Part shown: positions 25,496 through 37,979 of the stretch, in pieces
Layout of the letters: each line of letters begins with the position of its first letter
How positions within the stretch are numbered: the first letter of the stretch is position 1
Source of the DNA: a virus
DNA: 64,000 bases
Reading direction: 5' to 3' (one strand)
IMG/VR virus record: IMGVR_UViG_3300035490_000050
Location: 64,001-128,000 of that record
Notes under the pieces: generated by a model
The model's input: only the letters and a program-made list of their open reading frames with translations
What the model was told of the DNA's origin: nothing
The model's database searches: none
Position numbers and translations under genes: made by a program

Positions 25496-25524
25496 TTGAC
25501 ATCCATTTGATTCCGTGGGAGTAT
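25496..25524 (+). promoter_or_regulatory. Sigma70-type promoter of tRNA operon A
   Basis: TTGACA-17-GAGTAT. Confidence 0.6.
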
Positions 25525-25534
25525 TGAAACTGAC

Positions 25535-25618
25535 ATGCGATTCCTATTATCCAGTTCGCGCTATTGCCTCTCATCGTTGCTGAGAGCAGGCTCGCCATAT
25601 CTGGATAAAGGGATATAA
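25535..25618 (+). CDS. Attenuator leader peptide A (MRFLLSSSRYCLSSLLRAGSPYLDKGI)
   Basis: Leu/Ser/Tyr/Cys codons match the 10 downstream tRNAs; followed by antiterminator and terminator. Confidence 0.85.
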   Translation: MRFLLSSSRYCLSSLLRAGSPYLDKGI

Positions 25619-25642
25619 GATTTCAGAAATCCAGAGTTTGAC

Positions 25643-25673
25643 GAGCCGCTCAGAAATGGGCGGCTTTTGTTTT
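25643..25673 (+). terminator. Attenuator terminator A
   Basis: GAGCCGCTC-AGAAAT-GGGCGGCTT followed by TTGTTTT. Confidence 0.85.
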
Positions 25674-25675
25674 GT

Positions 25676-25760
25676 GCGAGATTGGCGAAATTGGGAGCCG
25701 CGTCCGATTTAAGATCGGATTCCTTTGGGAGTATGGGTTCAAGTCCCTTATCTCGCACCA
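25676..25760 (+). tRNA. tRNA-Leu(TAA)
   Basis: Cloverleaf, V-arm, CCA. Confidence 0.9.
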
Positions 25761-25761
25761 T

Positions 25762-25836
25762 GTACCGGAAGCCAATCGGTTAGGCGGCGGATTGCAGACC
25801 CGCTCTTGGCGAGTTCGATTCTCGCCCGGTACTCCA
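25762..25836 (+). tRNA. tRNA-Cys(GCA)
   Basis: Cloverleaf, U73, CCA. Confidence 0.9.
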
Positions 25837-25847
25837 AGTTTAGTAAG

Positions 25848-25930
25848 GCCCGGATGGTGGAATTGGCAGACACACCAGCTTGAGGGGTTGGCGCGAAAGC
25901 ATACGAGTTCAAGTCTCGTTTCGGGCACCA
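25848..25930 (+). tRNA. tRNA-Leu(GAG)
   Basis: Cloverleaf, V-arm, CCA. Confidence 0.93.
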
Positions 25931-25931
25931 T

Positions 25932-26014
25932 GGGGTTGTGGCGGAATTGGCAGACGCACCCGGCTCAGGACCGGACGCTTTGGCATAAGAGTTCGACTCT
26001 CTTCAGCCCCACCA
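25932..26014 (+). tRNA. tRNA-Leu(CAG)
   Basis: Cloverleaf, V-arm, CCA. Confidence 0.93.
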
Positions 26015-26021
26015 TAAGTTT

Positions 26022-26106
26022 GTCGATGTGGCGAAACTGGAAACCGCGATAGGCTCAAACCCTATTGTCTTATGACTTGCCGGTTCGATCCCGGCCATCG
26101 ACACCA
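26022..26106 (+). tRNA. tRNA-Leu(CAA)
   Basis: Cloverleaf, V-arm, CCA. Confidence 0.93.
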
Positions 26107-26114
26107 AGTTTTAC

Positions 26115-26204
26115 GGAGACGTGGCACAATGGTACTGCACAGCATTGCTAACGCTGCGATACCCCATAAAGGTATTGGGAGTTCAAGTCTCCCCGTCTCC
26201 GCCA
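26115..26204 (+). tRNA. tRNA-Ser(GCT)
   Basis: Cloverleaf, long V-arm, G73, CCA. Confidence 0.92.
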
Positions 26205-26213
26205 TGTTTTAAC

Positions 26214-26304
26214 GGAAGGATGAGCGGAATTGGTATCGCACTCGCTTGGAAAGCGAGCTTACGTCGAAAGGCGTATGCAGGTTCGAGTCCTGTTCCTTCC
26301 GCCA
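26214..26304 (+). tRNA. tRNA-Ser(GGA)
   Basis: Cloverleaf, long V-arm, G73, CCA. Confidence 0.93.
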
Positions 26305-26305
26305 C

Positions 26306-26395
26306 GGTAGAGTTGGGCATGGCTGGCAAGCCCACCGCTCTCGAAAAGCGACGTACCGCAAGGTACTGGCAGATCGTTCCTGCCCTCTACCGCCA
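26306..26395 (+). tRNA. tRNA-Ser(CGA)
   Basis: Cloverleaf, long V-arm, atypical T-loop ATCGTTC. Confidence 0.85.
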
Positions 26396-26400
26396 AGTTT

Positions 26401-26490
26401 GGATACGTTAGGCATGTGCCAAGCCTACCCCGTTTGAAGCGGGACGCTCCTGAAAGGGACTTGGGGGTTGAACTCCCTCCGTATCCGCCA
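26401..26490 (+). tRNA. tRNA-Ser(TGA)
   Basis: Cloverleaf, long V-arm, T-loop TTGAACT. Confidence 0.85.
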
Positions 26491-26495
26491 GTTGT

Positions 26496-26586
26496 GCGCG
26501 TGTGGCTCAGTGGCGACGGCGGCAGTCTGTAGAACTGCTACCCTTTGCGGTGAACATCGGTGGTTCGACTCCATCCACGCGCACCA
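26496..26586 (+). tRNA. tRNA-Tyr(GTA)
   Basis: Cloverleaf, V-arm, CCA. Confidence 0.92.
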
Positions 26587-26588
26587 CT

Positions 26589-26741
26589 CTACTTTGCCAG
26601 CGCCCGTTTTACAGTTCTCTTTTTCTGAGAAACCTTGGTGTAGGGAGTCTGGTTGAGGGCAGGTTTCACTGTTCCTGAGACCTTGTGTTTGGTGTACGGT
26701 TTTTCTTGCAGGGCTGGCTTGACTTCGCGCTTCGTTGGCAT
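26589..26741 (-). CDS. Small basic repeat peptide (50 aa)
   Basis: GAGG RBS; VKPAL/VKPAL/VKRAL and two PYTK repeats; below ORF-track cutoff. Confidence 0.55.
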   Translation of the reverse strand: MPTKREVKPALQEKPYTKHKVSGTVKPALNQTPYTKVSQKKRTVKRALAK

Positions 26742-26849
26742 TGATTCCACCTCATAAACAGATTAGCACAATAGGAATGTGTGGTACAATTCAGGTATTC
26801 CGTCGTTCCGGCCCGACGTTAAGCAACCGGAAAATCTGAAAGGAAAACC

Positions 26850-27311
26850 ATGAGCAAGATAAAAGGTGTAGACACGTCCGTTTCATCCACCCCAAAATTC
26901 TCACAGAACAAGCCTTCAGGCGATTTCACCCACAAAGACCTCAAGCCGTGCGGAGAAGGCGGTTGTCTCCCACTAGAACAGCCTGTAGGATTCGATGAGG
27001 TTGATATTCCTGAAGTGACCTCTCCTATCCCAACCAACTTTTCTACGGTCGTCCAGATCGTCAACGGCGTAGTAACGCCAACGCTGCAAGTACTGCTCTA
27101 CGATGTACTAAGCGTGATCGACGCCTCAATCCCAAACAAGGATCAGAATCGGGCGGTCAAGAAGTTGATTCACGATGGCTTTGACAAGGCGTATCTGGAC
27201 ATCATCCGAGAAGCCTACCCTGATTCCAACTTTGCAATTGGACCAGGACACGCCTTAACGCCTCTAGCCGACAAGAGTATGGCAATTCAGGCGGCAATCA
27301 GCAAGGTGTAA
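26850..27311 (+). CDS. Hypothetical protein
   Basis: AGGA RBS, 153 aa. Confidence 0.65.
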   Translation: MSKIKGVDTSVSSTPKFSQNKPSGDFTHKDLKPCGEGGCLPLEQPVGFDEVDIPEVTSPIPTNFSTVVQIVNGVVTPTLQVLLYDVLSVIDASIPNKDQNRAVKKLIHDGFDKAYLDIIREAYPDSNFAIGPGHALTPLADKSMAIQAAISKV

Positions 27312-27328
27312 AAAGCGCAGAATTATCC

Positions 27329-27357
27329 TTGACAACTCAGGAAAACGGTAGTACCTT
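27329..27357 (+). promoter_or_regulatory. Promoter directly upstream of tRNA-fMet
   Basis: TTGACA-17-TACCTT. Confidence 0.7.
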
Positions 27358-27363
27358 GGGAAA

Positions 27364-27438
27364 TGCGGGTTGGTAGCGCAGTGTCATACGTCAGGCTCAT
27401 AACCTGAAAATCTGGTGCAAGTCCAGTACCCGCAACCA
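27364..27438 (+). tRNA. tRNA-Met(CAT), initiator-like
   Basis: TCAGG-CTCATAA-CCTGA arm, CCCGCAACCA end; atypical D and T loops. Confidence 0.8.
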
Positions 27439-27646
27439 ATCTGGAGGATGTCATGGGAAATGGCATAATTCCGCATTAGCGGCTAGAAACCGCTAATCAG
27501 TAGAGCGAGAATCCGCTGCGGGAGGTAGTATATGCAGCAGCAGAAAAGGTTGGGGGAGATGGAGAAATCCCTCCCCCAGTCTCACAAGTAAAACGAGGCG
27601 TCGACACAAACCCACGCCTATCGCCTACAAATGAAAGTGGTGTGTT

Positions 27647-28330
27647 TTGAAAATCATCGGCGGTCATGATTATTATGATGTAGCACTGTCGATGGGCATT
27701 GATCCACGGATTGTTCTCTTGCGCGGAAAGAGTAAGAGCATACCAGTAAAGGCTGCTGGCGGGAGTTTGCTTGATCGGTACTTGGAACTCAAGCCACAGG
27801 TTACGTACAACACCTACGGCATAGGAATTGAGAATGTTGCCGTGGCATTTTGTGGGAAGGTTTATCGTGGCGCTGTAGGATTGAAGTCGCTGGAGAAGCC
27901 AGAAGGACTCTGGTCAGCAGATAAGGCAAGAGCATTCGTCGCGCAGGAAAAGAATAGAAAGATTGACGTGGACTCACGGTGGTATGATCGCAGAAACAGG
28001 ATGACCATGGAGGAATATTTCACTCCTTTTGATGCTCCTGATGCTTTGCGGAACTACATGATCGCCAACAAGATTTCGATTCTGGTTGAAGAGCCGCCAA
28101 AGTACCGTGGCGAGGAAAGCTATTTTCAGGTCAATCCTTTCACGCTGAAGCAACTAGGATTCGCAAAGGCTCTTGACCCATACACGGCTTTTCAGGAACT
28201 TTCGATGTGGATCGGTGGAGTTCTTGGGGGAACGAGTCCAGAGATCGTGACGATCAAGGATGACAAGGTTTTGATTGAGAATCACGGGTTTGACAACCGA
28301 TTCTCATTTCGCGGTCCTCGGATCGCATAG
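27647..28330 (+). CDS. Conserved-looking phage hypothetical protein
   Basis: DYYD..DPYTAFQELSMWIGG..HGFD..SFR. Confidence 0.7.
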   Translation: MKIIGGHDYYDVALSMGIDPRIVLLRGKSKSIPVKAAGGSLLDRYLELKPQVTYNTYGIGIENVAVAFCGKVYRGAVGLKSLEKPEGLWSADKARAFVAQEKNRKIDVDSRWYDRRNRMTMEEYFTPFDAPDALRNYMIANKISILVEEPPKYRGEESYFQVNPFTLKQLGFAKALDPYTAFQELSMWIGGVLGGTSPEIVTIKDDKVLIENHGFDNRFSFRGPRIA

Positions 28331-28337
28331 GATTTAC

Positions 28338-28413
28338 GCAACCGTAGCATAGCGGCTAATGTACTTGATTGTCGATCAAGGGTACGCCAGTTCGAATCTG
28401 GTCGGTTGCGCCA
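28338..28413 (+). tRNA. tRNA-Asp(GTC)
   Basis: Cloverleaf, G73, CCA. Confidence 0.92.
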
Positions 28414-28428
28414 TAATCTGAGGACGCC

Positions 28429-28935
28429 ATGAGAGATCGCGCAAAGACAATAGCATCTCTCAGACGGCTTATAGAGCGTCCTGGTACGCCGCAGGAAGGC
28501 GAAACAGCAAGACGCCTATTAGAAATGATGGGCGGGAAGGATTGGGTTCCGCGTCCTTTCGATGCAAGCATGTATCCTTGCGGAACTGAGGTTTTCTACT
28601 GCTACTGGACATACGATAACGAACATGGAGTGGTTTGCAAGCAGCCGCCAAAGATAGAAAGAGGCCAATGGTGGATGCGAATCAAATTCGATAAGCTGAA
28701 GCAGCCGCGTTGGGTAGCAGTAACGAGCGAACTTGGATGCCATTTAGGTTTTGAGCCGTTCAAGGGAAACGACAAGGAAGTTCTCTACCATCGGGATATA
28801 GAATGGGAAGAGACGTATCGGAAGATGATTGAAGAATTCAGGGCGCTAGGAATTGACGTAAGCCGACTTGAGCACGAAGAGGTACAAGATGCACGCGATA
28901 CCGGGTTGGATGTGCGGAGTGGACTTCTCCTGTGA
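28429..28935 (+). CDS. Hypothetical protein (DUF2786-like N-terminus)
   Basis: IASLRRL..TPQEGETARRLL. Confidence 0.55.
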   Translation: MRDRAKTIASLRRLIERPGTPQEGETARRLLEMMGGKDWVPRPFDASMYPCGTEVFYCYWTYDNEHGVVCKQPPKIERGQWWMRIKFDKLKQPRWVAVTSELGCHLGFEPFKGNDKEVLYHRDIEWEETYRKMIEEFRALGIDVSRLEHEEVQDARDTGLDVRSGLLL

Positions 28936-29183
28936 ATTAGGGGAAGCGAACGGCGGGAATACGATCTATCCGTCAGAGGAAAATCTCCGCGCCAACAGGA
29001 AATGCGTAAATTCCTCAGCGCCAGAGGATAAGATGTGCTACCCTGTTGAAGTCGTCACGATGTCGAAAGAGGACTTTCTTGAACTGGTAGAGAAGGCTGG
29101 CATTGATCCTGCGGCGATTCGGTCAAGCAATTGGGGACCAGCGGTTTGGACGAAAGAACAGGGATTGATTCAGTAGAGTTTTT

Positions 29184-29261
29184 GAGATGGCAGAGTGCGT
29201 TGGTTTGCTCCACGGCTTTTCACACCGTGCCACGCGGGTTCGATTCCCGTCCATCTCGCCA
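29184..29261 (+). tRNA. tRNA-Glu(TTC)
   Basis: Cloverleaf with 31:39 mismatch, CCA. Confidence 0.8.
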
Positions 29262-29267
29262 AGTTTT

Positions 29268-29345
29268 GGGGTCACCGTCTAAATGGATTTGGATACCTGA
29301 TTCTCACTCAGGAGATTGCGAGTTCGATCCTCGCTGACCCTACCA
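29268..29345 (+). tRNA. tRNA-Glu(CTC)
   Basis: Cloverleaf, CCA. Confidence 0.9.
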
Positions 29346-29423
29346 CAATTCAAGACTCGCGACCTGATCTGAGTCAACGGGCTGGCACGGTGACCAGTGC
29401 ATCAACCGAAAAGGAGAATAACG

Positions 29424-29798
29424 ATGCGTACCCGTTGCAAGTTCAGAGTCGTTGGTATTGAGAGTGTTGAACACGCGATCTTCAAGAAGGTATACAAGGC
29501 CGATGTGAGCGCCGAAGAATATGAAGCGATCACATCTCAAGAGTGGACCGAATATCCTCCCAATCCAGACAGGCGTCTCGGTGGTGGTCCTGAGCCAAAG
29601 TTGTACAAGCAGATATTTCTAGCGAACGCTCAGAATATCCGATTGGCTGCTCAGTACGACCCTTCCATTCCCGAAGATCAGCGGTTCATGGAAGCCACAC
29701 CCTCTGGGGAAATCAAGATGTATATTTCCAATCCCGCAGTGATAAACGGCTTCAAGATCGGAACGAACTACTACGTTGATCTGACGCCCTGCGATTAA
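29424..29798 (+). CDS. Phage hypothetical protein
   Basis: AGGAG RBS; RCKFRV..FMEATPSG..YYVDLTP. Confidence 0.7.
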   Translation: MRTRCKFRVVGIESVEHAIFKKVYKADVSAEEYEAITSQEWTEYPPNPDRRLGGGPEPKLYKQIFLANAQNIRLAAQYDPSIPEDQRFMEATPSGEIKMYISNPAVINGFKIGTNYYVDLTPCD

Positions 29799-29886
29799 CA
29801 TTGTCTGCCGTACCAGCACAAAAAGAGAAGCCCACCGATGTCTTGGTGGGCCTTTCTTTGCACTCCCCTCGTAAGGTGATACCAGT

Positions 29887-31533: not shown

Positions 31534-31562
31534 TTGACAGCGATTCCCATCTGCGCTAAGGT
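31534..31562 (+). promoter_or_regulatory. Promoter of tRNA operon B
   Basis: TTGACA-17-TAAGGT; ATG 8 nt after the -10 box (leaderless). Confidence 0.75.
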
Positions 31563-31569
31563 AGAAAAC

Positions 31570-31650
31570 ATGAAGACGCGATTCCAAAACGCCAATCCAA
31601 CAGCGACGGCAACGCCGCAGGGTCATGGTGCGGAATCAGGGTCTCAGTAG
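31570..31650 (+). CDS. Attenuator leader peptide B (MKTRFQNANPTATATPQGHGAESGSQ)
   Basis: Codons 3-21 use only the nine amino acids of the 11 downstream tRNAs. Confidence 0.85.
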   Translation: MKTRFQNANPTATATPQGHGAESGSQ

Positions 31651-31683
31651 GATTTTTACTCGCATAGAGCGAGTAAAACTGAA

Positions 31684-31724
31684 GAGGCCCGGTCCAAAGA
31701 AGCGGATCGGGCCTCGGTGCTTTT
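31684..31724 (+). terminator. Attenuator terminator B
   Basis: GAGGCCCGGTCC-8nt-GGATCGGGCCTC followed by GGTGCTTTT (weak U-tract). Confidence 0.7.
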
Positions 31725-31732: not shown

Positions 31733-31808
31733 TCCACGGTCGTCTAACTGTGAAGACACCGAACTGTTAATTCGGGTAATGCAGGTCAGAATCCTGCCTG
31801 TGGAGCCA
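31733..31808 (+). tRNA. tRNA-Asn(GTT)
   Basis: Cloverleaf, atypical T-loop TCAGAAT. Confidence 0.88.
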
Positions 31809-31817
31809 GTTTGAAGT

Positions 31818-31893
31818 TGGGGAGAAGTTCAACGGGTGGAACAATCGGCTCTGACCCGATAGGCAGAAAGTTCGAGACTTTCCTCCCCAGCCA
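31818..31893 (+). tRNA. tRNA-Gln(CTG)
   Basis: U1:A72, cloverleaf, CCA. Confidence 0.9.
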
Positions 31894-31900
31894 AGATCGT

Positions 31901-31974
31901 TGCCCGTTCGTTCAACGGTAGGACACCGCCCTTTGGAGGCGAGGATGGCGGTTCAAGTCCGTCACGGGTAGCCA
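31901..31974 (+). tRNA. tRNA-Gln(TTG)
   Basis: U1:A72, cloverleaf, CCA. Confidence 0.92.
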
Positions 31975-31981
31975 AATTAAC

Positions 31982-32055
31982 GCGGGCATAGCTCAGTGGT
32001 AGAGTGCTGGCTTGCCGAGCCGGAGACGCGGATTCAAGTTCCGCTGCCCGCTCCA
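31982..32055 (+). tRNA. tRNA-Gly(GCC)
   Basis: Cloverleaf, U73, CCA. Confidence 0.93.
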
Positions 32056-32136
32056 TATTGAAAGAGGAAGACGATGAAGGTTGATTTGGACGCCAGCATG
32101 GAATCGGTATACGGAAGGCTGGCAGGAAGGTTTCAG

Positions 32137-32211
32137 GCTGCTGTGGCAGAGAGCTTATGCGCTGACCCCGTAAGTCAGAATACAAGGGTTGAAATCCCTT
32201 CGGCAGCTCCA
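32137..32211 (+). tRNA. tRNA-Thr(CGT), C33 variant
   Basis: CTGAC-CCCGTAA-GTCAG arm, CCA. Confidence 0.85.
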
Positions 32212-32236
32212 GAATGTGACGAAAGCGAGTAGGACG

Positions 32237-32782
32237 ATGAACTTACTGAAAAAACCCGTACTTTTGCTCAACGCATCGTATGAGGCAATTCGCATAATTT
32301 CAGCAAAGAGATCGCTGACTCTCTTAACGAAAGGAAAAGTTGCGGTCGAACTTGCAACGGACAGGGAAGTTTATCCTGGCGTGTTTTTGCCTAGCGTTAT
32401 CCGTCTTCTTGTCTACAAGCATGTTCCCGTCAGAATGCAGCAGATGACGCGCAAAAACCTGTACTTGAGAGACGGTTACAAATGTGGCTATTGCGGTGAG
32501 CAGTTTTCTGGAAGCGAACTGACTTTGGATCACATTATCCCAAAGGCGCAAGGTGGAAAGAACACGTATGAGAACTTGATTACCTGCTGCCGCAAGGATA
32601 ACCATCGGAAAGCGGATCGGACGCCTCAACAGGCAGGAATGGTTTTGTTGAGACGGCCTATCCCGGCAACGGTTCACACTGGTAGGCACATCATGCGTTC
32701 GCTAGGATTAGAAACGCAGGGATGGGCAAAATATCTTTGGGCTGATGCTGATGGTGAGCAGAGGTTAGTGGCAAGAGGATGA
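32237..32782 (+). CDS. HNH endonuclease (McrA-like)
   Basis: VLLLNASYE..PSVIRL..RDGYKCGYCG..TLDHIIP..N..KADRTP. Confidence 0.93.
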   Translation: MNLLKKPVLLLNASYEAIRIISAKRSLTLLTKGKVAVELATDREVYPGVFLPSVIRLLVYKHVPVRMQQMTRKNLYLRDGYKCGYCGEQFSGSELTLDHIIPKAQGGKNTYENLITCCRKDNHRKADRTPQQAGMVLLRRPIPATVHTGRHIMRSLGLETQGWAKYLWADADGEQRLVARG

Positions 32783-32786
32783 GTTT

Positions 32787-32861
32787 GCACTCTAAACATT
32801 GCTGGTGATGCCTTCCCCTGTAAGGAAGTTTAACGGAGTTCGAGTCTCCGAGAGTGCTCCA
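32787..32861 (+). tRNA. tRNA-Thr(TGT), C33 variant
   Basis: CTTCC-CCTGTAA-GGAAG arm, CCA. Confidence 0.85.
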
Positions 32862-32864
32862 AGT

Positions 32865-32941
32865 GTGGCCGTAGTTCAAGAGGAAGAACACATGCCTGTG
32901 GCGCATGTATGATGGGCTTTCGAGCAGCCCCGGCCACCCCA
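32865..32941 (+). tRNA. tRNA-His(GTG)
   Basis: Cloverleaf, C73, CCA. Confidence 0.9.
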
Positions 32942-32946
32942 TTTGT

Positions 32947-33021
32947 GGGGGTGTAGTGACAATGAGAACACGTCCCGTTTGCACCGGGAAAATCGGAGTT
33001 TGAATCTCCGCATCTCCACCA
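32947..33021 (+). tRNA. tRNA-Ala(TGC)
   Basis: G3:U70, cloverleaf, CCA. Confidence 0.9.
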
Positions 33022-33031
33022 CGTAGTTTTT

Positions 33032-33107
33032 GTCTACTGAGCTAGTGCGGTCATAGCAATCGCCTGAAGAGCGATGGAATCCGGTTCGACTCCGGGAGTA
33101 GGCACCA
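33032..33107 (+). tRNA. tRNA-Phe(GAA)
   Basis: Cloverleaf, CCA. Confidence 0.92.
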
Positions 33108-33108
33108 T

Positions 33109-33182
33109 CAGGGAATAGTGTAGTGCTAACATCCGTGTTTTGGGCACACGTGTCCGGGGTTGGAATCCCCGTTCCCTGACCA
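33109..33182 (+). tRNA. tRNA-Pro(TGG)
   Basis: C1:G72, cloverleaf, CCA. Confidence 0.9.
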
Positions 33183-33187
33183 TTTTT

Positions 33188-33262
33188 CAACCCGTCGTTC
33201 AACGGAAAGGACGATGCGCTACGAACGCATAAATGGGGATTCGACTTCCTCCGGGTTGACCA
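33188..33262 (+). tRNA. tRNA-Arg(ACG)
   Basis: Cloverleaf, A20, CCA. Confidence 0.9.
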
Positions 33263-33298
33263 TAGTTCGCAAGCACGAAATAAAGTTGAAAATAATGC

Positions 33299-33327: not shown

Positions 33328-33355
33328 TGATTTCGTTGGGTTTTGAAACACAGGT

Positions 33356-33482: not shown

Positions 33483-33487
33483 TAAAT

Positions 33488-33605: not shown

Positions 33606-33613
33606 TAAGTTGT

Positions 33614-33731
33614 GGGGGACCGCTTAGTAAACCGAGGACGACTTCTCGGAAACGAGTACGGTTCTAGGATACATGACAAGCATACAGCCGAAAGGCTGTG
33701 TATCGTGGCTAAACACCACGGTCCTCCACCA
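33614..33731 (+). ncRNA. 118-nt tRNA-like RNA with Ala-type acceptor stem
   Basis: GGGGGAC/GTCCTCC-ACCA (G3:U70), T-like arm CGTGG-CTAAACA-CCACG. Confidence 0.6.
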
Positions 33732-33752
33732 AAGTTTTGTAGTACAAGTTGT

Positions 33753-33873
33753 GGCGGGTTAGCAAAACGGAAAAGCTCTGCATGTCTTGACGCGCAATCG
33801 TCTATTTTGCAGGTTACATGCACATTCACTCGGAGAATGCACAATCTAGGTTCGACTCCTAGACCCGCCACCA
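33753..33873 (+). ncRNA. 121-nt expanded tRNA-like RNA
   Basis: GGCGGGT/ACCCGCC-ACCA, canonical T arm, enlarged anticodon and variable regions. Confidence 0.65.
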
Positions 33874-34082
33874 TAAGATTTACCGCATGGGAGTGCGGAA
33901 ACGAGTTTGGCTGACACTGGTTTCGTGGATACATGTTTTTGGGGATCATATCCCCACCCCCCGCCTAAGCCCTTTGGCAACGGAGGATTTAGGCGGGGGT
34001 TCTGAGGGCCGCAAGGCTGCTTAGAAAACAATTGCCCACAACCGACTTTCAGCCACTATTTTTGTGCCTTGGGAGAGGGAAT

Positions 34083-34643
34083 ATGGCCAGCGGTGATCGT
34101 TTCTACATGCTATCCTTGCGCCATCGCCCTGCGGTGTACGGCGATCTCGGAAACATCCTCAAAATCGAAGGTTTGGTGGTAGGCGGAGAAGGGGCGCATG
34201 TAATTCTTACGCTTCCCTCTTCCGATCTAAAAACTGATACCTACTGGGATGCTAATACATTCCCAGCAATTCATCAGTTATCCCTTGAGGAGTGGACCGA
34301 TTTTCTAGCGCGTACTGACGATCCAGAAATTCTAATCGGTCAAGCGAAGGCTTTCCATCGCAAATGCCGTTATGAAATTTCAGGGGCGGTACAGCAGAAG
34401 ATATGGGTAGCTGATGGTCTAAAGTGCATGTACTGCGGAGTCAGGATGGGCAGGGCACAACTCACAGTGGACCATTGGGAATCGCTTGAGGCTGGTGGAA
34501 AGAACGATAGCTCAAATTTTCTCGCAGCCTGCAAGACGTGTAATAAGGCCAAAGGTTCCATGCCGCCGCGTGACTGGTGCAGCCTTCGCAAAATTGATTA
34601 CGACTTCTTTGTGGAGTATCTGAGAACGAGGAAGTTGCCTTAA
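34083..34643 (+). CDS. HNH endonuclease
   Basis: DGLKCMYCG..LTVDH..GG..N..ACKTCNKAKG. Confidence 0.88.
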   Translation: MASGDRFYMLSLRHRPAVYGDLGNILKIEGLVVGGEGAHVILTLPSSDLKTDTYWDANTFPAIHQLSLEEWTDFLARTDDPEILIGQAKAFHRKCRYEISGAVQQKIWVADGLKCMYCGVRMGRAQLTVDHWESLEAGGKNDSSNFLAACKTCNKAKGSMPPRDWCSLRKIDYDFFVEYLRTRKLP

Positions 34644-34671
34644 CACTTTTCGCACCGGGAGGGCGAATACT

Positions 34672-36165
34672 ATGGCAGAAACAGGGCTTACACGTCAAAG
34701 AATTTTGTCGGAATTGTCGAAGAGTCCACACGGCTCTTTGAAAGAGTATCTTCCTATCGGCAAACAGGCCGTTCAACAGGAAGGTGAATTTTATCAACAC
34801 ATGCTTGCCTGGGATAGGACGCATGGGCAGATTAGGGACAGCAAGGTTGCGCTTCCTGTGATCGGCTTGGCTTTTGAGAAGGATGAGGAATTACTCGACA
34901 ACAGCCTTGCTCACATCGCTCTTTTGGGGCCGCGTGAACTGGCAAGAGCATATCGGTTTGGATTGGAGATTCGTCTCCCTGGCAAGATGCGTCAGTTGCG
35001 TAGGCTTGTCGAAGACTACCTACACCAAAAGGAGCAAGACAAAGGTTGGGATCATCTGGCAATCCAGCACAGGGGTACGCTGAAGGAACTCTACTCTCTG
35101 GCGCACGCAAAGCCTGAAAAGGAGAGAACCAACGTCGTTCTCTATGGCAGGAACTTCGACAAGACAAAGGCACCGCTGCCCAAGGGATCAGTCTTTGAGG
35201 TAGTAGCAAACCTCAAGAACATGAGTCCTACGGAGGCTGCTGGTTCGATCATGAAGTACCGGATTCCTTTCCTTATCGCCATGGGCGCGTTAGGCGCAAA
35301 GGCGAAGGAGCCGGATTTGGTACTGGCTTTGATCGGAGCCATGTCTGCAACGGAGTTGACCACGAACGTCAAGATGCTGGAGAAGTTGGGCCTGAAGACG
35401 AATCCTGCGCTGCGTGGGGCATTCGACAACGCATTGGCTAAGGCGGCTACGTCGAAGAAGAATACGCTCAAGACGACTCAGGCGGTCGAGGCCGTACAGG
35501 ACGAGGGATTGAAGGAGAAGCTCCGTGGACTACAGGCAAAGCAGATAGCGGCTGCGGGTGGTCCAGACGGCGACTGGGTAATTTTAGTTGACAAATCTGG
35601 ATCGATGCACCATGCAATCGAAACTGGTTGCCATGTTGCAGGGGCGCTCACACAGTTCGTCAAAGGAAAGGTTGGGTTGATTTTCTTCGATACCTCTCCT
35701 ATGGCGGTGGACGTAACCGGCTTGTCGCTGGACCAAATCAAGAAGGCGACACGACACTTCACAGCGAACGGTGGAACATCCATCGGCTGCGGTCTGAATC
35801 GGATGCTGGTAGAGAAAGTTGCTGTGGATGGAATTGTGATCGTGTCGGACGGTGGAGACAACACTGCTCCACTATTCCATGACGTATATCCGAAGTACGC
35901 GAAATTCTGCGATAAGGATGTGCCGGTGTATTTCTACCAACTTAGCGGAGAATCGGACAAGCTGACGCCGAACATGCAACGGGCAGGAATCGAGATGACA
36001 ACATTCGATTTGCGCGGTTCAAAGCTGGACTACTACAGCATTCCGAACACGGTCAAGACGCTTCGCAGTAACCAGTACAGTTTGGTTGAGGAAATACTCT
36101 CGACCCCGCTTTTAACCCTCAACACCGTGCTCAAGGGAGCGCAGAAAGGACTGGTGACAGTCTAA
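34672..36165 (+). CDS. TROVE/Ro60-like protein with C-terminal vWA
   Basis: About 300-aa helical N-terminus (EFYQHMLAW..IRDSK) plus VDKSGSM, GGTSIG, VSDG MIDAS; Ro60-like length; next to Y-like RNAs. Confidence 0.7.
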   Translation: MAETGLTRQRILSELSKSPHGSLKEYLPIGKQAVQQEGEFYQHMLAWDRTHGQIRDSKVALPVIGLAFEKDEELLDNSLAHIALLGPRELARAYRFGLEIRLPGKMRQLRRLVEDYLHQKEQDKGWDHLAIQHRGTLKELYSLAHAKPEKERTNVVLYGRNFDKTKAPLPKGSVFEVVANLKNMSPTEAAGSIMKYRIPFLIAMGALGAKAKEPDLVLALIGAMSATELTTNVKMLEKLGLKTNPALRGAFDNALAKAATSKKNTLKTTQAVEAVQDEGLKEKLRGLQAKQIAAAGGPDGDWVILVDKSGSMHHAIETGCHVAGALTQFVKGKVGLIFFDTSPMAVDVTGLSLDQIKKATRHFTANGGTSIGCGLNRMLVEKVAVDGIVIVSDGGDNTAPLFHDVYPKYAKFCDKDVPVYFYQLSGESDKLTPNMQRAGIEMTTFDLRGSKLDYYSIPNTVKTLRSNQYSLVEEILSTPLLTLNTVLKGAQKGLVTV

Positions 36166-36464
36166 TGAATATCAACGCACTGAAGAACTTCAACGCCGAC
36201 CGTATGGACTTGGATGACATGGTAGGCTTGCTTGCGGACTGCAAGGCACTCCGCGCTGAGTACGAGGCGCTCCAGATCGAAGAGCCTGAGTATATCGACA
36301 CAACCATCAAGGCAATTCGCCGGGAGATCACATCCCGCAACGCTGACAAGATCGCGGCTCGTAAGCGTGAGCTTGCCGCACGGATCGACAGCCTCAAGAC
36401 TCCTGCACAGAAGAAGGCAGAACTTGAGAAGGAGCTTGCCAAGTTGGAAGCCGTTCCTGTCTAA
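36165..36464 (+). CDS. Small coiled-coil protein
   Basis: TAATG coupling to the TROVE-like gene. Confidence 0.75.
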   Translation: MNINALKNFNADRMDLDDMVGLLADCKALRAEYEALQIEEPEYIDTTIKAIRREITSRNADKIAARKRELAARIDSLKTPAQKKAELEKELAKLEAVPV

Positions 36465-36485
36465 CCCATCAACCATTTGAGCGAA

Positions 36486-36515
36486 GGGGCACAGGATAAC
36501 GTGCCCCACTTTTTT
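36486..36515 (+). terminator. Terminator of TROVE operon
   Basis: GGGGCAC-8nt-GTGCCCC followed by ACTTTTTT. Confidence 0.75.
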
Positions 36516-36518
36516 CTC

Positions 36519-36547
36519 TTGCATTCCTAATCGACCTGGGGTACAGT
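36519..36547 (+). promoter_or_regulatory. Promoter of tRNA operon C
   Basis: TTGCAT-17-TACAGT. Confidence 0.65.
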
Positions 36548-36557
36548 TTCTATAGTG

Positions 36558-36638
36558 ATGAAGAGGATCATTGGTATCACCTCTTTTCTGTTCGCCCACC
36601 CCCTTCGGCTCTCCCAAGTGTCCGGGGATGTAGGCTAA
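36558..36638 (+). CDS. Upstream leader ORF C1 (MKRIIGITSFLFAHPLRLSQVSGDVG)
   Basis: Near-leaderless start; begins AAG AGG ATC ATT GGT ATC ACC; its stop overlaps the RBS of C2. Confidence 0.5.
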   Translation: MKRIIGITSFLFAHPLRLSQVSGDVG

Positions 36639-36645
36639 GGAAAAC

Positions 36646-36732
36646 ATGCAGACGACCACCAGACGCGGGACCATAACCAGAATGACCAAGCGGGTCATTT
36701 GGGGAATAGTGCGCGAGGGTTGGGACGATTAA
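36646..36732 (+). CDS. Attenuator leader peptide C2 (MQTTTRRGTITRMTKRVIWGIVREGWDD)
   Basis: TAAGGA RBS; codons 3-23 use only the eight amino acids of the downstream tRNAs. Confidence 0.85.
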   Translation: MQTTTRRGTITRMTKRVIWGIVREGWDD

Positions 36733-36756
36733 ATCTGCAAAAAGATTGAATCTACC

Positions 36757-36782
36757 AGCCCGGTCTTAGGATCGGGCTTTTT
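36757..36782 (+). terminator. Attenuator terminator C
   Basis: AGCCCGGTC-TTAG-GATCGGGCT followed by TTTT. Confidence 0.88.
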
Positions 36783-36811
36783 GATGTTTGAAAACTGAAA
36801 CGAATAATCAT

Positions 36812-36886
36812 GCCTCGTTAAGCTAGTTGGGAAACTGTCGGTCTCCAAAGCCGAACTCAGGGGTTCAAATCCTCTACGGGGTGCCA
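36812..36886 (+). tRNA. tRNA-Trp(CCA)
   Basis: Cloverleaf, G73, CCA. Confidence 0.9.
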
Positions 36887-36891
36887 TTTTT

Positions 36892-36969
36892 GCCAGTGTA
36901 GTTCAGTCGGCTTAGAACGCTGCATTCATAACGCAGAGGTCAACAGTTCAATCCTGTTCACTGGCACCA
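36892..36969 (+). tRNA. tRNA(CAT), elongator Met or Ile2
   Basis: Cloverleaf, CCA; identity cannot be settled by eye. Confidence 0.88.
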
Positions 36970-36973
36970 AGTT

Positions 36974-37071
36974 GGAGCGGCGGCGCATAATTCACTGGCG
37001 GTATCGGACAGCTAAGACTACCGAGACGTGCAGAACTCACCGAAAGGTTAGCCGTTGCAGTGGGCCGCTCC
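36974..37071 (+). ncRNA. Unknown structured RNA within tRNA operon C
   Basis: Closing stem GGAGCGGC/GCCGCTCC with internal CACTG/CAGTG and a GAAA hairpin. Confidence 0.45.
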
Positions 37072-37158
37072 GAAAGTTCACGGCTGTAAAGCCTATACCG
37101 ATGGCGCAAGGCCATCCTGCCGTGATTAAGTTTCGAGTCCTAGTGGGGGCACCATAGT

Positions 37159-37245
37159 GGAACCGTGGCCTAGTCTGGTTTTGGGCACCCGGCTCTTACC
37201 CGGCGCAGAAATGCAACGCAGGTTCAAATCCTGCCGGTTCCACCA
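37159..37245 (+). tRNA. tRNA-Lys(CTT) with long variable arm
   Basis: Cloverleaf plus GCA-GAAA-TGC V-arm. Confidence 0.88.
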
Positions 37246-37255
37246 ACACTTTTAC

Positions 37256-37341
37256 GGAGTCGTACTCGAATTGGATGCAGAGACCTGACTTTTAATCAGC
37301 GGGGTAACCCAATGGGGGTTCGAGTCCCCCCGGCTCCACCA
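37256..37341 (+). tRNA. tRNA-Lys(TTT) with long variable arm
   Basis: Cloverleaf plus GGG-GTAA-CCC V-arm. Confidence 0.88.
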
Positions 37342-37346
37342 GTTAC

Positions 37347-37423
37347 GCGGCGGTATTCCCCTCGTCTTCTAAACGAGTAAGGATAATTGGAATATGTGAG
37401 TTCGATCCTCACCCGCTGCTCCA
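37347..37423 (+). tRNA. tRNA-Arg(TCT), D-loop-relocated topology
   Basis: Intact acceptor, anticodon and T arms; 7-nt 5' linker; 18-nt post-anticodon segment. Confidence 0.8.
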
Positions 37424-37427
37424 TTTT

Positions 37428-37504
37428 GGTCCCGTACCGGCCATGTTTCCTAAACATGTAACCGTAAGTGGATGATGTCAGTTCGAGCCTGACCGGGACT
37501 TCCA
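37428..37504 (+). tRNA. tRNA-Arg(CCT), D-loop-relocated topology
   Basis: Same geometry, 77 nt. Confidence 0.8.
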
Positions 37505-37508
37505 TTTT

Positions 37509-37585
37509 GCTGCCGTACCAGCCGCGCCTCCGAAGCGCGATACTGTAACTGAATGATGCAGGTTTGAGTCCTGTCGGCAGCGCCA
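37509..37585 (+). tRNA. tRNA-Arg(CCG), D-loop-relocated topology
   Basis: Same geometry, 77 nt. Confidence 0.8.
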
Positions 37586-37590
37586 GTTTT

Positions 37591-37668
37591 GGGAACGTGG
37601 GCCAGCGGCGACGCCACCTGTCCTACAAACAGGTATTACCGGAAGTTCGAGTCTTCCCGTTCCCACCA
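37591..37668 (+). tRNA. tRNA-Val(TAC), C33 variant
   Basis: CCTGT-CCTACAA-ACAGG arm, CCA. Confidence 0.87.
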
Positions 37669-37744
37669 AGTTCGGAGTCCTACGGTTAGAAGCCGTGGGA
37701 GGTTACAACGAGCAGATGCAACACCTGCTACTCTGGGATGATTT

Positions 37745-37818
37745 GCCGATGTAGCTCAGTGATAGAGTGCCGCACTGGTATTGCGGTGACGAGGGTTTGA
37801 TTCCCTCCTTCGGCCCCA
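37745..37818 (+). tRNA. tRNA-Thr(GGT)
   Basis: Cloverleaf, CCA. Confidence 0.9.
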
Positions 37819-37819
37819 T

Positions 37820-37897
37820 GGCGGTCTAGCTCACATTGAGAAGAGCGCAGTCCTGATAAGACTGAGGCACCCAGTTCAATTCTGGGGACCGCCACCA
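37820..37897 (+). tRNA. tRNA-Ile(GAT)
   Basis: Cloverleaf, CCA. Confidence 0.92.
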
Positions 37898-37903
37898 TAG
37901 TTT

Positions 37904-37979
37904 GCGGGAGTAACTCAGCGGCTAGAGTGTCAGCCTTCCAAGCTGTTCGTCGAGGGTTCGAGTCCCTTCTCCCGCTCCA
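37904..37979 (+). tRNA. tRNA-Gly(TCC)
   Basis: Cloverleaf, U73, CCA. Confidence 0.93.

What the first reader, a model, noticed from the sequence alone, without database searches (positions are those of the whole stretch)
25496..37979. Codon-matched leader-peptide attenuators appear to control three phage tRNA operons (tRNA-depletion sensor)
Seen: each of three tRNA operons has the same layout: promoter, a 26-28 codon ORF (missed by the 60-aa ORF track), a segment able to pair with the terminator's 5' arm, an intrinsic terminator, then tRNAs. Each leader uses the amino acids of its own operon, largely at isoacceptor level. Thr: only ACG/ACA in B (tRNAs CGT/TGT) but five ACC in C (GGT). Gly: GGT in the B sensing stretch (GCC) but GGG/GGA in C (TCC). 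Arg: CGA in B (ACG) but AGA/CGG in C (TCT/CCG). Established: this is the architecture of trp/his/thr ribosome-mediated attenuation, and host anticodon nucleases (PrrC, RloC, PARIS, VapC/MazF types) deplete tRNAs during infection. Inference: stalling at any leader codon gives read-through, supplying replacement tRNAs for that group on demand. I know of no description of such a multi-codon sensor for tRNA genes, but could not search the literature.
Basis: partly seen in the sequence, partly recalled or inferred. Interest (0 to 1): 0.97.

Follow-up and report, generated by a model that had tools for sequence, protein, structure and literature searches.

The report
Leader-peptide attenuators gating phage tRNA operons
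Each of three tRNA gene clusters of this uncultured soil/peat phage sits behind a tiny test gene written in the codons that cluster's tRNAs read and joined to a switchable transcription stop, so the phage probably makes a tRNA set only when ribosomes decode those codons slowly.

Summary
Three ORFs of 26-28 codons (25535-25618, 31570-31650, 36646-36732) each lie between a promoter and a terminator hairpin, 10-35 nt before a tRNA cluster. Their codons cover 10/10, 11/11 and 10/11 anticodons of their own cluster. No random control reached this: 0 of 200,000 windows and 0 of 100,000 deals of the codons among leaders.

Relatives were found through a neighbouring protein, not through the leaders. 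All 16 operon starts in 6 genomes keep the layout although the peptides have diverged. Anticodon coverage is 156/164. Codon match is 62% in frame against 32% and 25% out of frame.

Matched codons sit mid-ORF (189/249). The last five codons (26/80) overlap the strand that pairs with the terminator's 5' arm. That is the geometry expected if a stalled ribosome gives read-through.

The best reading is trp/his-type ribosome-mediated attenuation applied to tRNA genes, acting as feedback on tRNA supply. Nothing is experimental. Isoacceptor tuning shows only in aggregate. The link to anticodon nucleases is untested.

Nine literature searches found no description. This scan noted the same design before in other phage genomes.

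The parts
25496..25524 (+). Promoter of unit A (TTGACA, 17 nt, GAGTAT). The start codon lies 10 nt after the -10 hexamer.
   Evidence: The motif TTGACA-N17-KANNNT has 12 matches in the window against 1.16 expected; sequence read.
25535..25618 (+). Leader ORF A (P0001, 27 codons): 6 Leu, 6 Ser, 2 Tyr and 1 Cys among 26 codons after the start.
   Evidence: 14/26 codons are read by operon A tRNAs and 10/10 anticodons are covered. It ranks 1st of 584 small ORFs.
25583..25597 (+). Candidate antiterminator 5' strand of unit A, pairing with 25640-25652.
   Evidence: RNAduplex gives -18.7 kcal/mol against -10.8 for shuffles; 0 of 300 shuffles are as good.
25643..25666 (+). Terminator hairpin A (10 bp) followed by a U-rich tail, 10 nt before the first tRNA.
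25676..26586 (+). tRNA operon A: Leu UAA, Cys GCA, Leu GAG, Leu CAG, Leu CAA, Ser GCU, Ser GGA, Ser CGA, Ser UGA, Tyr GUA.
27329..29344 (+). Contrast unit. Promoter 27329-27357 abuts tRNA-Met(CAU) with no leader ORF or hairpin. Asp GUC (28338) and Glu UUC/CUC (29184-29344) follow, separated by ORFs.
   Evidence: The layout is the same in L010/L012 and L006/L013.
31534..31562 (+). Promoter of unit B (TTGACA, 17 nt, TAAGGT). The start codon lies 7 nt after the -10 hexamer, so the mRNA is leaderless or nearly so.
31570..31650 (+). Leader ORF B (P0002, 26 codons), rich in Thr, Ala, Gln, Asn, Pro and Gly, with one His, Phe and Arg.
   Evidence: 19/25 codons match and 11/11 anticodons are covered. 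It ranks 1st of 584.
31631..31646 (+). Antiterminator 5' strand of unit B (core GGGUCUC). It lies in the last codons of the ORF and pairs with the terminator's 5' arm.
   Evidence: The same core sits at or next to the stop codon in L005, L008 and L010.
31654..31678 (+). Small hairpin enclosed by the antiterminator of unit B. The stem is kept in relatives with different sequence.
31684..31715 (+). Terminator-like hairpin B (12 bp). The U run starts 5 nt after the stem.
31733..33262 (+). tRNA operon B: Asn GUU, Gln CUG, Gln UUG, Gly GCC, Thr CGU, an HNH gene at 32189-32782, Thr UGU, His GUG, Ala UGC, Phe GAA, Pro UGG, Arg ACG.
36519..36547 (+). Promoter of unit C (TTGCAT, 17 nt, TACAGT), followed by a 5' UTR of about 100 nt with a Shine-Dalgarno AAGGA 5 nt before the ATG.
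   Evidence: Read. The same promoter and UTR are in L008.
36646..36732 (+). Leader ORF C (P0003, 28 codons), with Thr (5 ACC), Arg, Ile, Gly, Val, Trp, Met and Lys.
   Evidence: 16/27 codons match and 10/11 anticodons are covered. It ranks 2nd of 584.
36717..36723 (+). Core of the antiterminator 5' strand of unit C (GGGUUGG), pairing with 36753-36759.
   Evidence: In L010/L012 the neighbouring letters pair with a different terminator arm.
36757..36778 (+). Terminator hairpin C (9 bp) followed by UUUUU.
36812..37979 (+). tRNA operon C: Trp CCA, Met CAU, an unassigned 190 nt, Lys CUU, Lys UUU, Arg UCU, Arg CCU, Arg CCG (the last three non-canonical), Val UAC, Thr GGU, Ile GAU, Gly UCC.

Best explanation
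Each unit is a ribosome-mediated (leader-peptide) transcription attenuator placed in front of tRNA genes.

Proposed sequence of events:
1. RNA polymerase starts at a sigma-70-type promoter.
2. A ribosome loads on the leader ORF. In A and B it loads on a leaderless or nearly leaderless 5' start codon; in C it loads through a Shine-Dalgarno site.
3. If every codon is decoded quickly, the ribosome reaches the last codons and the stop. There it covers the RNA strand that would pair with the 5' arm of the terminator. The terminator hairpin then forms and transcription ends before the tRNAs.
4. If the ribosome is held up at a central codon for want of a charged cognate tRNA, that strand stays free. 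It pairs with the terminator's 5' arm (the antiterminator), and the polymerase reads on into the tRNA genes.

The central codons are those read by the tRNAs downstream, with about one codon for each tRNA. Each operon is therefore under negative feedback from its own products and is induced by shortage of any of them.

Shown here: the parts, their order, the codon match, its reading frame and position, the possible pairings, and their conservation.
Inferred: translation of the leaders, termination at the hairpins, and the response to tRNA supply.
For: 1. Codon match in the window:
- Anticodons covered are 10/10, 11/11 and 10/11. Own-operon matches are 14/26, 19/25 and 16/27, against 0-6 for the other operons.
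- 0 of 200,000 random windows reach this. The leaders rank 1st, 1st and 2nd among 584 small ORFs.
- The deal-out permutation gives 46 observed against 20.8 +/- 3.7, reached in 0 of 100,000.

2. Conservation:
- Relatives were found with the neighbouring 497-aa protein at 65-78% identity.
- All 16 operon starts examined in 6 genomes have a promoter, a short ORF and a hairpin.
- With ARAGORN's own tRNA calls, the own-operon match is highest in 15 of 15 rows and coverage is 156/164.
- The five A leaders can hardly be aligned, yet all are rich in Leu, Ser, Cys and Tyr.

3. Reading frame: match is 224/361 in frame against 109/345 and 85/345 in the shifted frames. Frame 0 is best in 16 of 16 leaders.

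4. Position: matched codons are 9/32 at codons 2-3, 189/249 in the middle and 26/80 in the last five (odds ratio 6.5).

5. Antiterminator pairing:
- The best partner of the terminator's 5' arm ends -19 to +27 nt from the stop codon in 16 of 16 leaders.
- Masking a ribosome footprint changes how often that arm is paired. The probability is 0.71 with the A site mid-ORF and 0.41 at the last two codons or the stop. This holds in 14 of 16 leaders (for 11 leaders).

6. Translation of leaderless starts is plausible. The same promoter motif (12 matches against 1.16 expected) stands 6-7 nt before ATGs that open ORFs of 321, 411 and 85 codons.

7. Internal contrast: the Met-Asp-Glu-Glu unit has its promoter abutting the first tRNA, with no ORF or hairpin, in all 3 genomes where it is present.

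8. Pooled over 16 leaders, synonymous codon choice also favours the operon's own isoacceptors. Match is 224 against 193.5 +/- 6.0 and coverage 156 against 133.1 +/- 4.2, reached in 0 of 20,000.

9. From the literature: loss of one tRNA-Phe gene (pheR) de-represses the Salmonella pheA attenuator 6- to 7-fold (passage read in PMC3082878). Leader-peptide attenuators are therefore known to report tRNA dosage.
Against: - There is no experimental evidence. The four RNA runs are assembled contigs, gave no information on ends or on the leaders, and may hold DNA.
- With the whole terminator present, equilibrium folding favours the terminator at nearly every ribosome position. P is 0.9-1.0 in 7 of 11 leaders. 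Any switch must therefore be kinetic, which I could not model.
- The antiterminator duplex beats shuffled controls at P<=0.05 in only 6 of 16 leaders.
- In unit A of the window, masking a ribosome at the stop does not lower the pairing (0.65 against 0.66).
- The hairpins of B in the window, L008, L010/L012 and L005 are not followed at once by a U run. Termination there may be weak or may work otherwise.
- In the window alone, codon choice given the amino acids is not significant.
- In record G008 the Thr(GGU) gene lies in operon B, yet leader C keeps four ACC codons.
- L006/L013 leader B has no His codon although His(GUG) is in the operon.
- 29 of 78 window leader codons are not cognate.
- Each tRNA is probed by one or a few scattered codons rather than a run, which should give low sensitivity.
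- Several relatives' leaders start with GTG at a leaderless 5' end. From general knowledge this is a poor start in E. coli; the host here is unknown.
- The 16 leaders share ancestry, so the pooled P-values overstate independence.
Confidence: 0.72

Rival explanations
1. The leader ORFs are translated and do sense decoding of cognate codons, but the output is not intrinsic termination. The hairpin and its alternative pairing would instead control processing or stability of the precursor (for example RNase E, RNase III or RNase P access), or Rho loading.
For: B-type hairpins in 4 of 6 genomes lack a U run directly after the stem. Every hairpin lies only 10-35 nt before the first tRNA's 5' end, where processing takes place.
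Against: The A and C hairpins, and B in G007 and G008, are canonical GC stems with U runs. The conserved competition between the stop-proximal strand and the 5' arm is what termination control needs.
Confidence: 0.12
2. The leader RNA is not translated. It binds tRNAs directly through codon-like triplets, as a T-box-like element with many specifiers, or it acts as a tRNA sponge.
For: The triplets are complementary to the anticodons encoded downstream. T-box RNAs show that RNA can read anticodons (general knowledge).
Against: The match is confined to one frame that opens with a start codon and closes with a stop in 16 of 16 leaders. The stop keeps its place next to the antiterminator strand. 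No T-box or other family scores above its cut-off. Leaderless long ORFs from the same promoter type show that such starts are used.
Confidence: 0.05
3. The small ORFs encode peptides with a function of their own, for example the signal-peptide-like A leaders. Their composition would then match the operons only by shared ancestry or chance.
For: A leaders begin with a basic residue and a Leu/Ser-rich stretch, and some hold an L-S-S-C-like motif.
Against: The peptide sequences are poorly conserved while the composition is kept. Three different compositions each track their own operon. The peptides end after 18-29 residues, with no mature part.
Confidence: 0.04
4. Chance: short ORFs picked after the fact near tRNA genes.
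For: Single-leader P-values for match or coverage taken alone are only about 0.001.
Against: The joint controls were reached in 0 of 200,000, 0 of 100,000 and 0 of 20,000 trials. The leaders rank at the top among 584 ORFs. The layout is present in 16 of 16 operon starts of relatives found independently of the leaders.
Confidence: 0.01

Closest known systems
Enterobacterial leader-peptide transcription attenuators (trpL, hisL, leuL, pheL, thrL; multivalent ilvGMEDA leader)
   Same: A promoter is followed by a short translated ORF with regulatory codons, alternative antiterminator and terminator pairings, and an intrinsic terminator before the controlled genes. A ribosome that reaches the stop favours termination; a stalled one favours read-through. 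The thr and ilv leaders sense more than one amino acid.
   Different: The controlled genes are tRNAs, not biosynthetic enzymes. The leader holds about one codon for each of 10-12 different tRNAs (4-9 amino acids) instead of a run of one or two. Most leaders are leaderless mRNAs. There is no sequence membership: the best Rfam hit is Trp_leader at 24 bits against a cut-off of 41.
T-box riboswitches
   Same: They gate transcription by a terminator/antiterminator choice according to the state of a specific tRNA.
   Different: A T-box reads one uncharged tRNA directly, without a ribosome. It controls aminoacyl-tRNA synthetase and amino-acid genes. No T-box match was found here, and the signal here lies in an ORF's reading frame.
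Long tRNA array (trn operon) of Anabaena PCC 7120, silent until translation is impaired, under the repressor TrcR (PMC8421152, PMC10272220)
   Same: An accessory tRNA operon is switched on under translational stress. Homing endonuclease genes lie among the tRNA genes.
   Different: Control is ascribed to a protein repressor. The words leader, attenuat, terminator (both papers) and stall (searched in PMC10272220 only) do not occur in the main texts (term searches; beyond that I saw only the abstracts as listed, plus two passages of PMC8421152 that hold the word phage). It is a bacterial megaplasmid, not a phage.
Drug-inducible leader peptides (ermC, cat, vmlR type)
   Same: A ribosome stalled on a short upstream ORF remodels the downstream RNA structure and turns on a gene that relieves the translational problem.
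   Different: The stall there is caused by an antibiotic and a specific nascent peptide. Here the ORF composition points to tRNA supply, and the peptide sequences are not conserved.

Membership tests
Ribosome-mediated (leader-peptide) transcription attenuator | A short ORF lies between the promoter and the terminator on the same strand as the controlled genes. | tested here: met
   Three of three units in the window; 16 of 16 operon starts in 6 genomes.
Ribosome-mediated (leader-peptide) transcription attenuator | The ORF holds regulatory codons tied to the product of the controlled genes. | tested here: met
   Anticodons covered are 10/10, 11/11 and 10/11 in the window and 156/164 over 16 leaders. 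The match is frame-specific.
Ribosome-mediated (leader-peptide) transcription attenuator | An intrinsic terminator (GC-rich hairpin plus U run) precedes the controlled genes. | tested here: inconclusive
   Units A and C are canonical. Unit B of the window and of 3 relatives has a strong hairpin, but the U run is displaced or partly paired.
Ribosome-mediated (leader-peptide) transcription attenuator | An alternative antiterminator pairing uses the terminator's 5' arm and is placed so that a ribosome at the stop blocks it. | tested here: met
   The partner strand ends -19 to +27 nt from the stop in 16 of 16 leaders. Pairing probability is 0.71 against 0.41, in 14 of 16 leaders. The duplex beats shuffles at P<=0.05 in only 6 of 16.
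Ribosome-mediated (leader-peptide) transcription attenuator | The leader is translated, and read-through rises when cognate charged tRNA is scarce. | not testable with these tools
   The only RNA data are metatranscriptome contigs, which were uninformative.
Rfam leader families (Trp_leader, His_leader, Thr_leader, Leu_leader and others) | A score at or above the family's gathering cut-off. | tested here: not met
   The only hit is Trp_leader at 36715-36785: 24 bits against a cut-off of 41, E = 0.34.
T-box riboswitch | A specifier loop and the T-box motif (Rfam model). | tested here: not met
   No match up to E = 5 in 25400-38200.

The most novel reading that the evidence does not exclude
These leaders are programmable multi-input sensors of the tRNA pool. 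Each works as an OR gate over the 10-12 tRNAs of its operon, giving the phage operon-by-operon homeostasis of its own tRNAs. They also act as an inducible countermeasure: when a host anticodon nuclease or other tRNA-depleting defence cuts a tRNA species, ribosomes stall on the matching leader codon and the phage switches on replacement tRNAs. Some of those tRNAs have unusual arms and an RNA ligase gene lies nearby. The same design in unrelated phages, noted earlier in this scan, would make it a widespread and undescribed class of phage regulation.
Probability: 0.3. Interest if true: 0.95.

Novelty: new variant of a known kind. Interest (0 to 1): 0.86.

Why it matters
How phages regulate their tRNA genes is largely unknown. 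Those genes are usually discussed as constitutive codon-usage helpers or as decoys against tRNA-cleaving defences.

A leader-peptide attenuator written in the operon's own codons would be a direct feedback loop from decoding speed to tRNA synthesis. It would extend a textbook mechanism (trp/his attenuation) to a new class of genes and to a many-codon sensor.

It gives a simple, testable design rule: one codon per tRNA, placed upstream of the strand that pairs with the terminator. It also yields compact parts for reporting the availability of specific tRNAs in cells.

The idea can be tested with ordinary reporter fusions and defined in-vitro translation systems.

Tried and rejected
- Megablast and blastn of the region against cultured phages found no relative, only scattered tRNA similarity. 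tblastn with the primase/helicase gave matches of at most about 25% identity.
- The search for related loci with the protein at 29887-30636 found none.
- With the RNA ligase it found L001-L004, none of which holds a tRNA. These were no use for the question.
- Equilibrium folding with the whole terminator showed no clear switch. I replaced it by folding up to the 5' arm.
- The MAFFT alignment of the five B leaders was too poor in the stems for the count of structure pairs, so helices were compared one sequence at a time.
- RNA runs X17-X20 laid on 25000-38500 are contigs only. Some pieces are identical to the window (for example 33349-33606 and 36878-37058). There was no cover of leader B, no ends and no strand, and DNA carry-over is possible, so they are no evidence either way. 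DNA holders are peat, wetland and soil metagenomes.
- A quick look at the tRNA region of the cultured phage DSS3_MAL1 showed no obvious codon-matched leader among ORFs of 20 aa or more. This was by eye only, not a test.
- Ro60/Y-RNA idea for the 497-aa protein and the structured RNAs at 33500-33880: only a VWA domain and one PHROG name, no PDB sequence match and no Rfam match. Left open.
- Pfam on six further neighbours gave nothing.
- Search for co-variation of tRNA gain or loss with leader codons among relatives: the sets are too alike. The one clear move (Thr GGU in G008) is matched by one ACC in leader B, but leader C did not lose its ACC codons.
- Literature: nine searches found no paper on leader-peptide control of tRNA genes. 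Only listings and abstracts were seen, apart from term searches and passages in PMC10272220, PMC8421152 and PMC3082878. Subscription journals and supplements were not searchable.

Full report
WHAT THE WINDOW IS

The window is bases 64001-128000 of a 136,454-bp virus record that CheckV rates as complete. All of its tRNA genes lie in window 25676-37979, on the + strand.

No cultured phage is close. Megablast found nothing, blastn found only scattered tRNA similarity, and the primase/helicase reaches about 25% identity at best. DNA of this phage is held by peat, wetland and soil metagenomes.

Homing-endonuclease genes are interspersed among the tRNAs at 30892-31524, 32189-32782 and 34032-34643. 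An RNA ligase gene lies at 38985-39953 on the minus strand.

CHECK OF THE OBSERVATION

ARAGORN found 31 tRNAs. Rfam and lower-threshold ARAGORN added:
- Ser(UGA) at 26401-26490;
- Glu(CUC) at 29267-29344;
- a weak Met(CAU) at about 27364;
- three Arg tRNAs (UCU, CCU, CCG) at 37337-37581.

The three Arg tRNAs have good acceptor stems, anticodon stem-loops and CCA ends, but a shortened D region and an enlarged variable region. They align with the Arg tRNAs of relatives.

A terminator-like hairpin stands 10-35 nt before the first tRNA of each of three clusters, at 25643-25666, 31684-31715 and 36757-36778. Upstream of each hairpin is an ORF of 27, 26 or 28 codons: 25535-25618, 31570-31650 and 36646-36732 (proteins P0001-P0003). 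Upstream of each ORF is a promoter.

IS THE CODON MATCH MORE THAN CHANCE?

I used strict wobble rules (G34 reads C/U, U34 reads A/G, C34 reads G, A34 as inosine reads U/C/A).

| Leader | Codons read by own operon | Read by the other two operons | Own anticodons covered |
|---|---|---|---|
| A | 14 of 26 | 6 and 3 | 10/10 |
| B | 19 of 25 | 2 and 2 | 11/11 |
| C | 16 of 27 | 0 and 5 | 10/11 |

Five controls followed.

(a) I drew 200,000 random windows of the same length from 105 long ORFs of the genome. Match alone or coverage alone reaches the observed value with P between 2.5e-5 and 4.5e-3. Both together were reached 0 times for each leader.

(b) Among all 584 ATG ORFs of 20-40 codons in six frames of the whole genome, leaders A and B rank first for their operon and leader C ranks second.

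Dealing the 78 leader codons at random among the three leaders gives 20.8 +/- 3.7 own-operon matches, with a maximum of 38 in 100,000 deals. The observed value is 46, using ARAGORN's automatic tRNA sets.

(d) Shifted frames of the same nucleotides match far less (figures below).

(e) Holding the amino acids fixed and resampling synonymous codons from the genome's usage, the window's leaders are not individually remarkable. Coverage P is 0.21, 0.20 and 0.38; match P is 0.85, 0.012 and 0.28.

The strong signal is therefore at the level of which amino acids are used.

RELATIVES

To avoid choosing relatives by the leaders, I searched IMG/VR with the 497-aa protein that lies between operons B and C. 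Nine loci at 65-78% identity came back. Some are near-duplicates: L006 resembles L013, and L010, L011 and L012 are alike.

With added stretches from the same records this gives six distinct genomes: the window, G005 (L008), G006 (L012 plus L014), G007 (L013 plus L015), G008 (L016) and the fragment L005.

All 16 operon starts that could be examined (A in 5 genomes, B in 6, C in 5) show a promoter, an ORF of 18-29 codons and a strong hairpin before the tRNAs. In G008 a homing-endonuclease gene has been inserted between the B hairpin and the first tRNA.

The following figures use only ARAGORN's own calls:
- The own-operon match is the highest in 15 of 15 rows that have three operons.
- 156 of 164 anticodons are covered. 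Several of the eight misses are evident miscalls, such as a Lys UUU called a stop-reader.
- In-frame match is 224/361 codons, against 109/345 and 85/345 in the two shifted frames. Frame 0 is best in 16 of 16 leaders.
- Pooled over the 16 leaders, synonymous choice also leans to the operon's own isoacceptors. Match is 224 against 193.5 +/- 6.0 and coverage 156 against 133.1 +/- 4.2, reached in 0 of 20,000 resamplings.

The leaders share ancestry, so these pooled values overstate independence. The peptides have nevertheless diverged a great deal. The five A leaders can hardly be aligned, yet each is built mainly of Leu, Ser, Cys and Tyr.

Four further contigs were found with a 21-nt conserved stretch of leader C, so they are biased toward having that leader. 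They show variable N-terminal halves of the same composition in front of the same operon.

GEOMETRY

Matched codons are not spread evenly along the leaders:
- codons 2-3: 9 of 32 matched;
- central codons: 189 of 249 matched;
- last five codons: 26 of 80 matched (odds ratio 6.5, middle against end).

The best pairing partner of the terminator's 5' arm lies at the end of the ORF. Its 3' end falls between -19 and +27 nt from the stop codon in 16 of 16 leaders.

In the B leaders a conserved core GGGUCUC, at or touching the stop codon, pairs with the arm GAGRCCC and encloses a small hairpin. The stem of that hairpin is kept with different letters in relatives. In C the same conserved ORF end pairs with different terminator arms in the window and in G006.

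I then folded each transcript up to the 5' arm with a 28-nt ribosome footprint masked (for 11 leaders):
- With the A site in the central codons, the arm is paired with mean probability 0.71.
- With the A site in the last two codons or the stop, the mean probability is 0.41.
- The drop is seen in 14 of 16 leaders. Unit A of the window is an exception (0.65 against 0.66). There the helix would have to close around a loop that carries the ribosome, which the model does not penalise.

This is the arrangement expected if a ribosome held at a central codon permits the antiterminator, and a ribosome that finishes the ORF destroys it.

With the full terminator present, equilibrium folding almost always prefers the terminator, as in classical attenuators. 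The choice must therefore be kinetic.

ARE THE LEADERS TRANSLATED?

There is no direct evidence. In 14 of 16 leaders the start codon lies 6-10 nt after the -10 hexamer (read). These would be leaderless or nearly leaderless mRNAs. In the window's unit C and in L008 the ORF follows a UTR of about 100 nt with a Shine-Dalgarno sequence.

The promoter motif is real: 12 matches in the window against 1.16 +/- 0.99 expected. At three of those matches an ATG 6-7 nt after the -10 opens an ORF of 321, 411 or 85 codons. This phage and its host therefore use leaderless starts for ordinary genes.

AN INTERNAL CONTRAST

The Met(CAU)-Asp-Glu-Glu unit has its promoter abutting the first tRNA, with no ORF and no hairpin. 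This holds in the window, in L010/L012 and in L006/L013.

WHAT ARGUES AGAINST, OR LIMITS, THE READING

- Nothing is experimental. The four metatranscriptome runs are contigs without ends or strand, have no cover of leader B, and may hold DNA.
- The B hairpins of the window, L008, L010/L012 and L005 are not followed directly by a U run.
- The antiterminator duplex beats shuffles at P<=0.05 in only 6 of 16 leaders.
- In G008 the Thr(GGU) gene sits in operon B. Leader B there has one ACC, but leader C keeps four ACC codons.
- L006/L013 leader B lacks a His codon.
- 29 of the window's 78 leader codons are non-cognate.
- Scattered single codons should sense less sharply than the runs of classical leaders.

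COMPARISON WITH WHAT IS KNOWN

The design works like the enterobacterial leader-peptide attenuators, most like the multivalent thr and ilv leaders. It is not a sequence member of any Rfam leader family: the best hit is Trp_leader at 24 bits against a cut-off of 41. It is not a T-box.

It differs from known attenuators in three ways:
- the controlled genes are tRNAs;
- the sensor has about one codon per tRNA, for 10-12 tRNAs;
- most leaders are leaderless mRNAs.

A passage in PMC3082878 reports that deleting one tRNA-Phe gene de-represses the pheA attenuator 6- to 7-fold. Such attenuators are therefore known to respond to tRNA dosage.

The nearest published case of regulated accessory tRNA genes that I found is the Anabaena trn operon. 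It is induced under translational stress and is ascribed to the repressor TrcR (PMC8421152, PMC10272220). Term searches found none of the words leader, attenuat or terminator in either main text, nor stall in PMC10272220, where alone it was searched.

Nine full-text searches found no description of leader-peptide control of tRNA genes. Subscription journals and supplements could not be searched.

Earlier notes of this scan report the same design in several other, apparently unrelated phage genomes. I did not test those.

VERDICT

The attenuator reading is well supported by sequence statistics, geometry and conservation, at about 0.7. The role as a sensor of defence-inflicted tRNA loss is open, at about 0.3. 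I class it as a new variant of a known kind of control, and it is of high interest because it is simple to test.

Noticed in passing
window 37159-37581; L008 13619-13702; L012 15541-15634: Several phage tRNAs have unusual shapes. Lys(CUU) and Lys(UUU) carry long variable arms. The three Arg tRNAs have a shortened D region and an enlarged variable region. Relatives carry an Ile(UAU) tRNA with a long variable arm. Whether this helps escape host tRNA nucleases is unknown.
   Followed up: partly
window 36970-37158: A 190-nt stretch between Met(CAU) and Lys(CUU) ends in ...CCA and lies where relatives have Ile(UAU), but no tRNA is called there. Leader C has two ATA codons whose reader is therefore not identified in this genome. 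One RNA-library contig covers 36878-37058 without a difference.
   Followed up: partly
window 33379-33452 (promoter-like site about 33299-33327): A well-scoring tRNA (63 bits) with anticodon UCA, which would read the stop codon TGA, lies outside the gated operons. Relatives carry tRNAs that ARAGORN calls with anticodon CUA, for example at L006 2861 and L013 3824. I did not test whether any genes need stop read-through.
   Followed up: no
window 33500-33880 and 34672-36165: A run of structured, tRNA-like RNAs includes a tRNA-like gene with a 46-nt insert at 33753-33873. It lies upstream of a 497-aa protein with a VWA domain and a weak match to a PHROG named 'RNA-binding protein'. A Ro60/Y-RNA-like pair is possible but unsupported: there is no PDB or Rfam match.
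   Followed up: partly
window 8909-8946, 22826-22854 (-), 22879-22916: Ordinary genes of 321, 411 and 85 codons start 6-7 nt after the -10 hexamer of TTGACA-N17-TAnnnT promoters. This phage therefore makes leaderless mRNAs.
   Followed up: yes
window 37983-38125: Another promoter of the same type stands directly after the last tRNA of operon C. It is followed by a 12-codon GTG ORF and a GC-rich hairpin around 38085-38120. No gene is recognised downstream on this strand.
   Followed up: no
L016 620-990 (record G008); window 32189-32782: HNH homing-endonuclease genes sit inside the tRNA operons. In G008 one sits between the leader-B hairpin and the first tRNA, so the attenuator would gate the endonuclease gene too.
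   Followed up: partly
L005 3246-3317: A tRNA in the place of Ala(UGC) is called Val(UAC) by low-threshold ARAGORN, yet it has a G3:U70 pair in the acceptor stem (read by eye). From general knowledge that pair is the alanine identity mark. It is either a miscalled anticodon or an odd tRNA.
   Followed up: no
L001-L003 (RNA-ligase relatives): Contigs whose RNA ligase is 79% identical to the window's (38985-39953) hold no tRNA gene at all, although one is rated 81% complete. The tRNA island may be a recent gain or loss in this group.
   Followed up: partly
window 36715-36785: The end of leader C plus its terminator gives a sub-threshold match to Rfam Trp_leader (24 bits, cut-off 41, E = 0.34). 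This probably reflects the similar terminator hairpin.
   Followed up: yes
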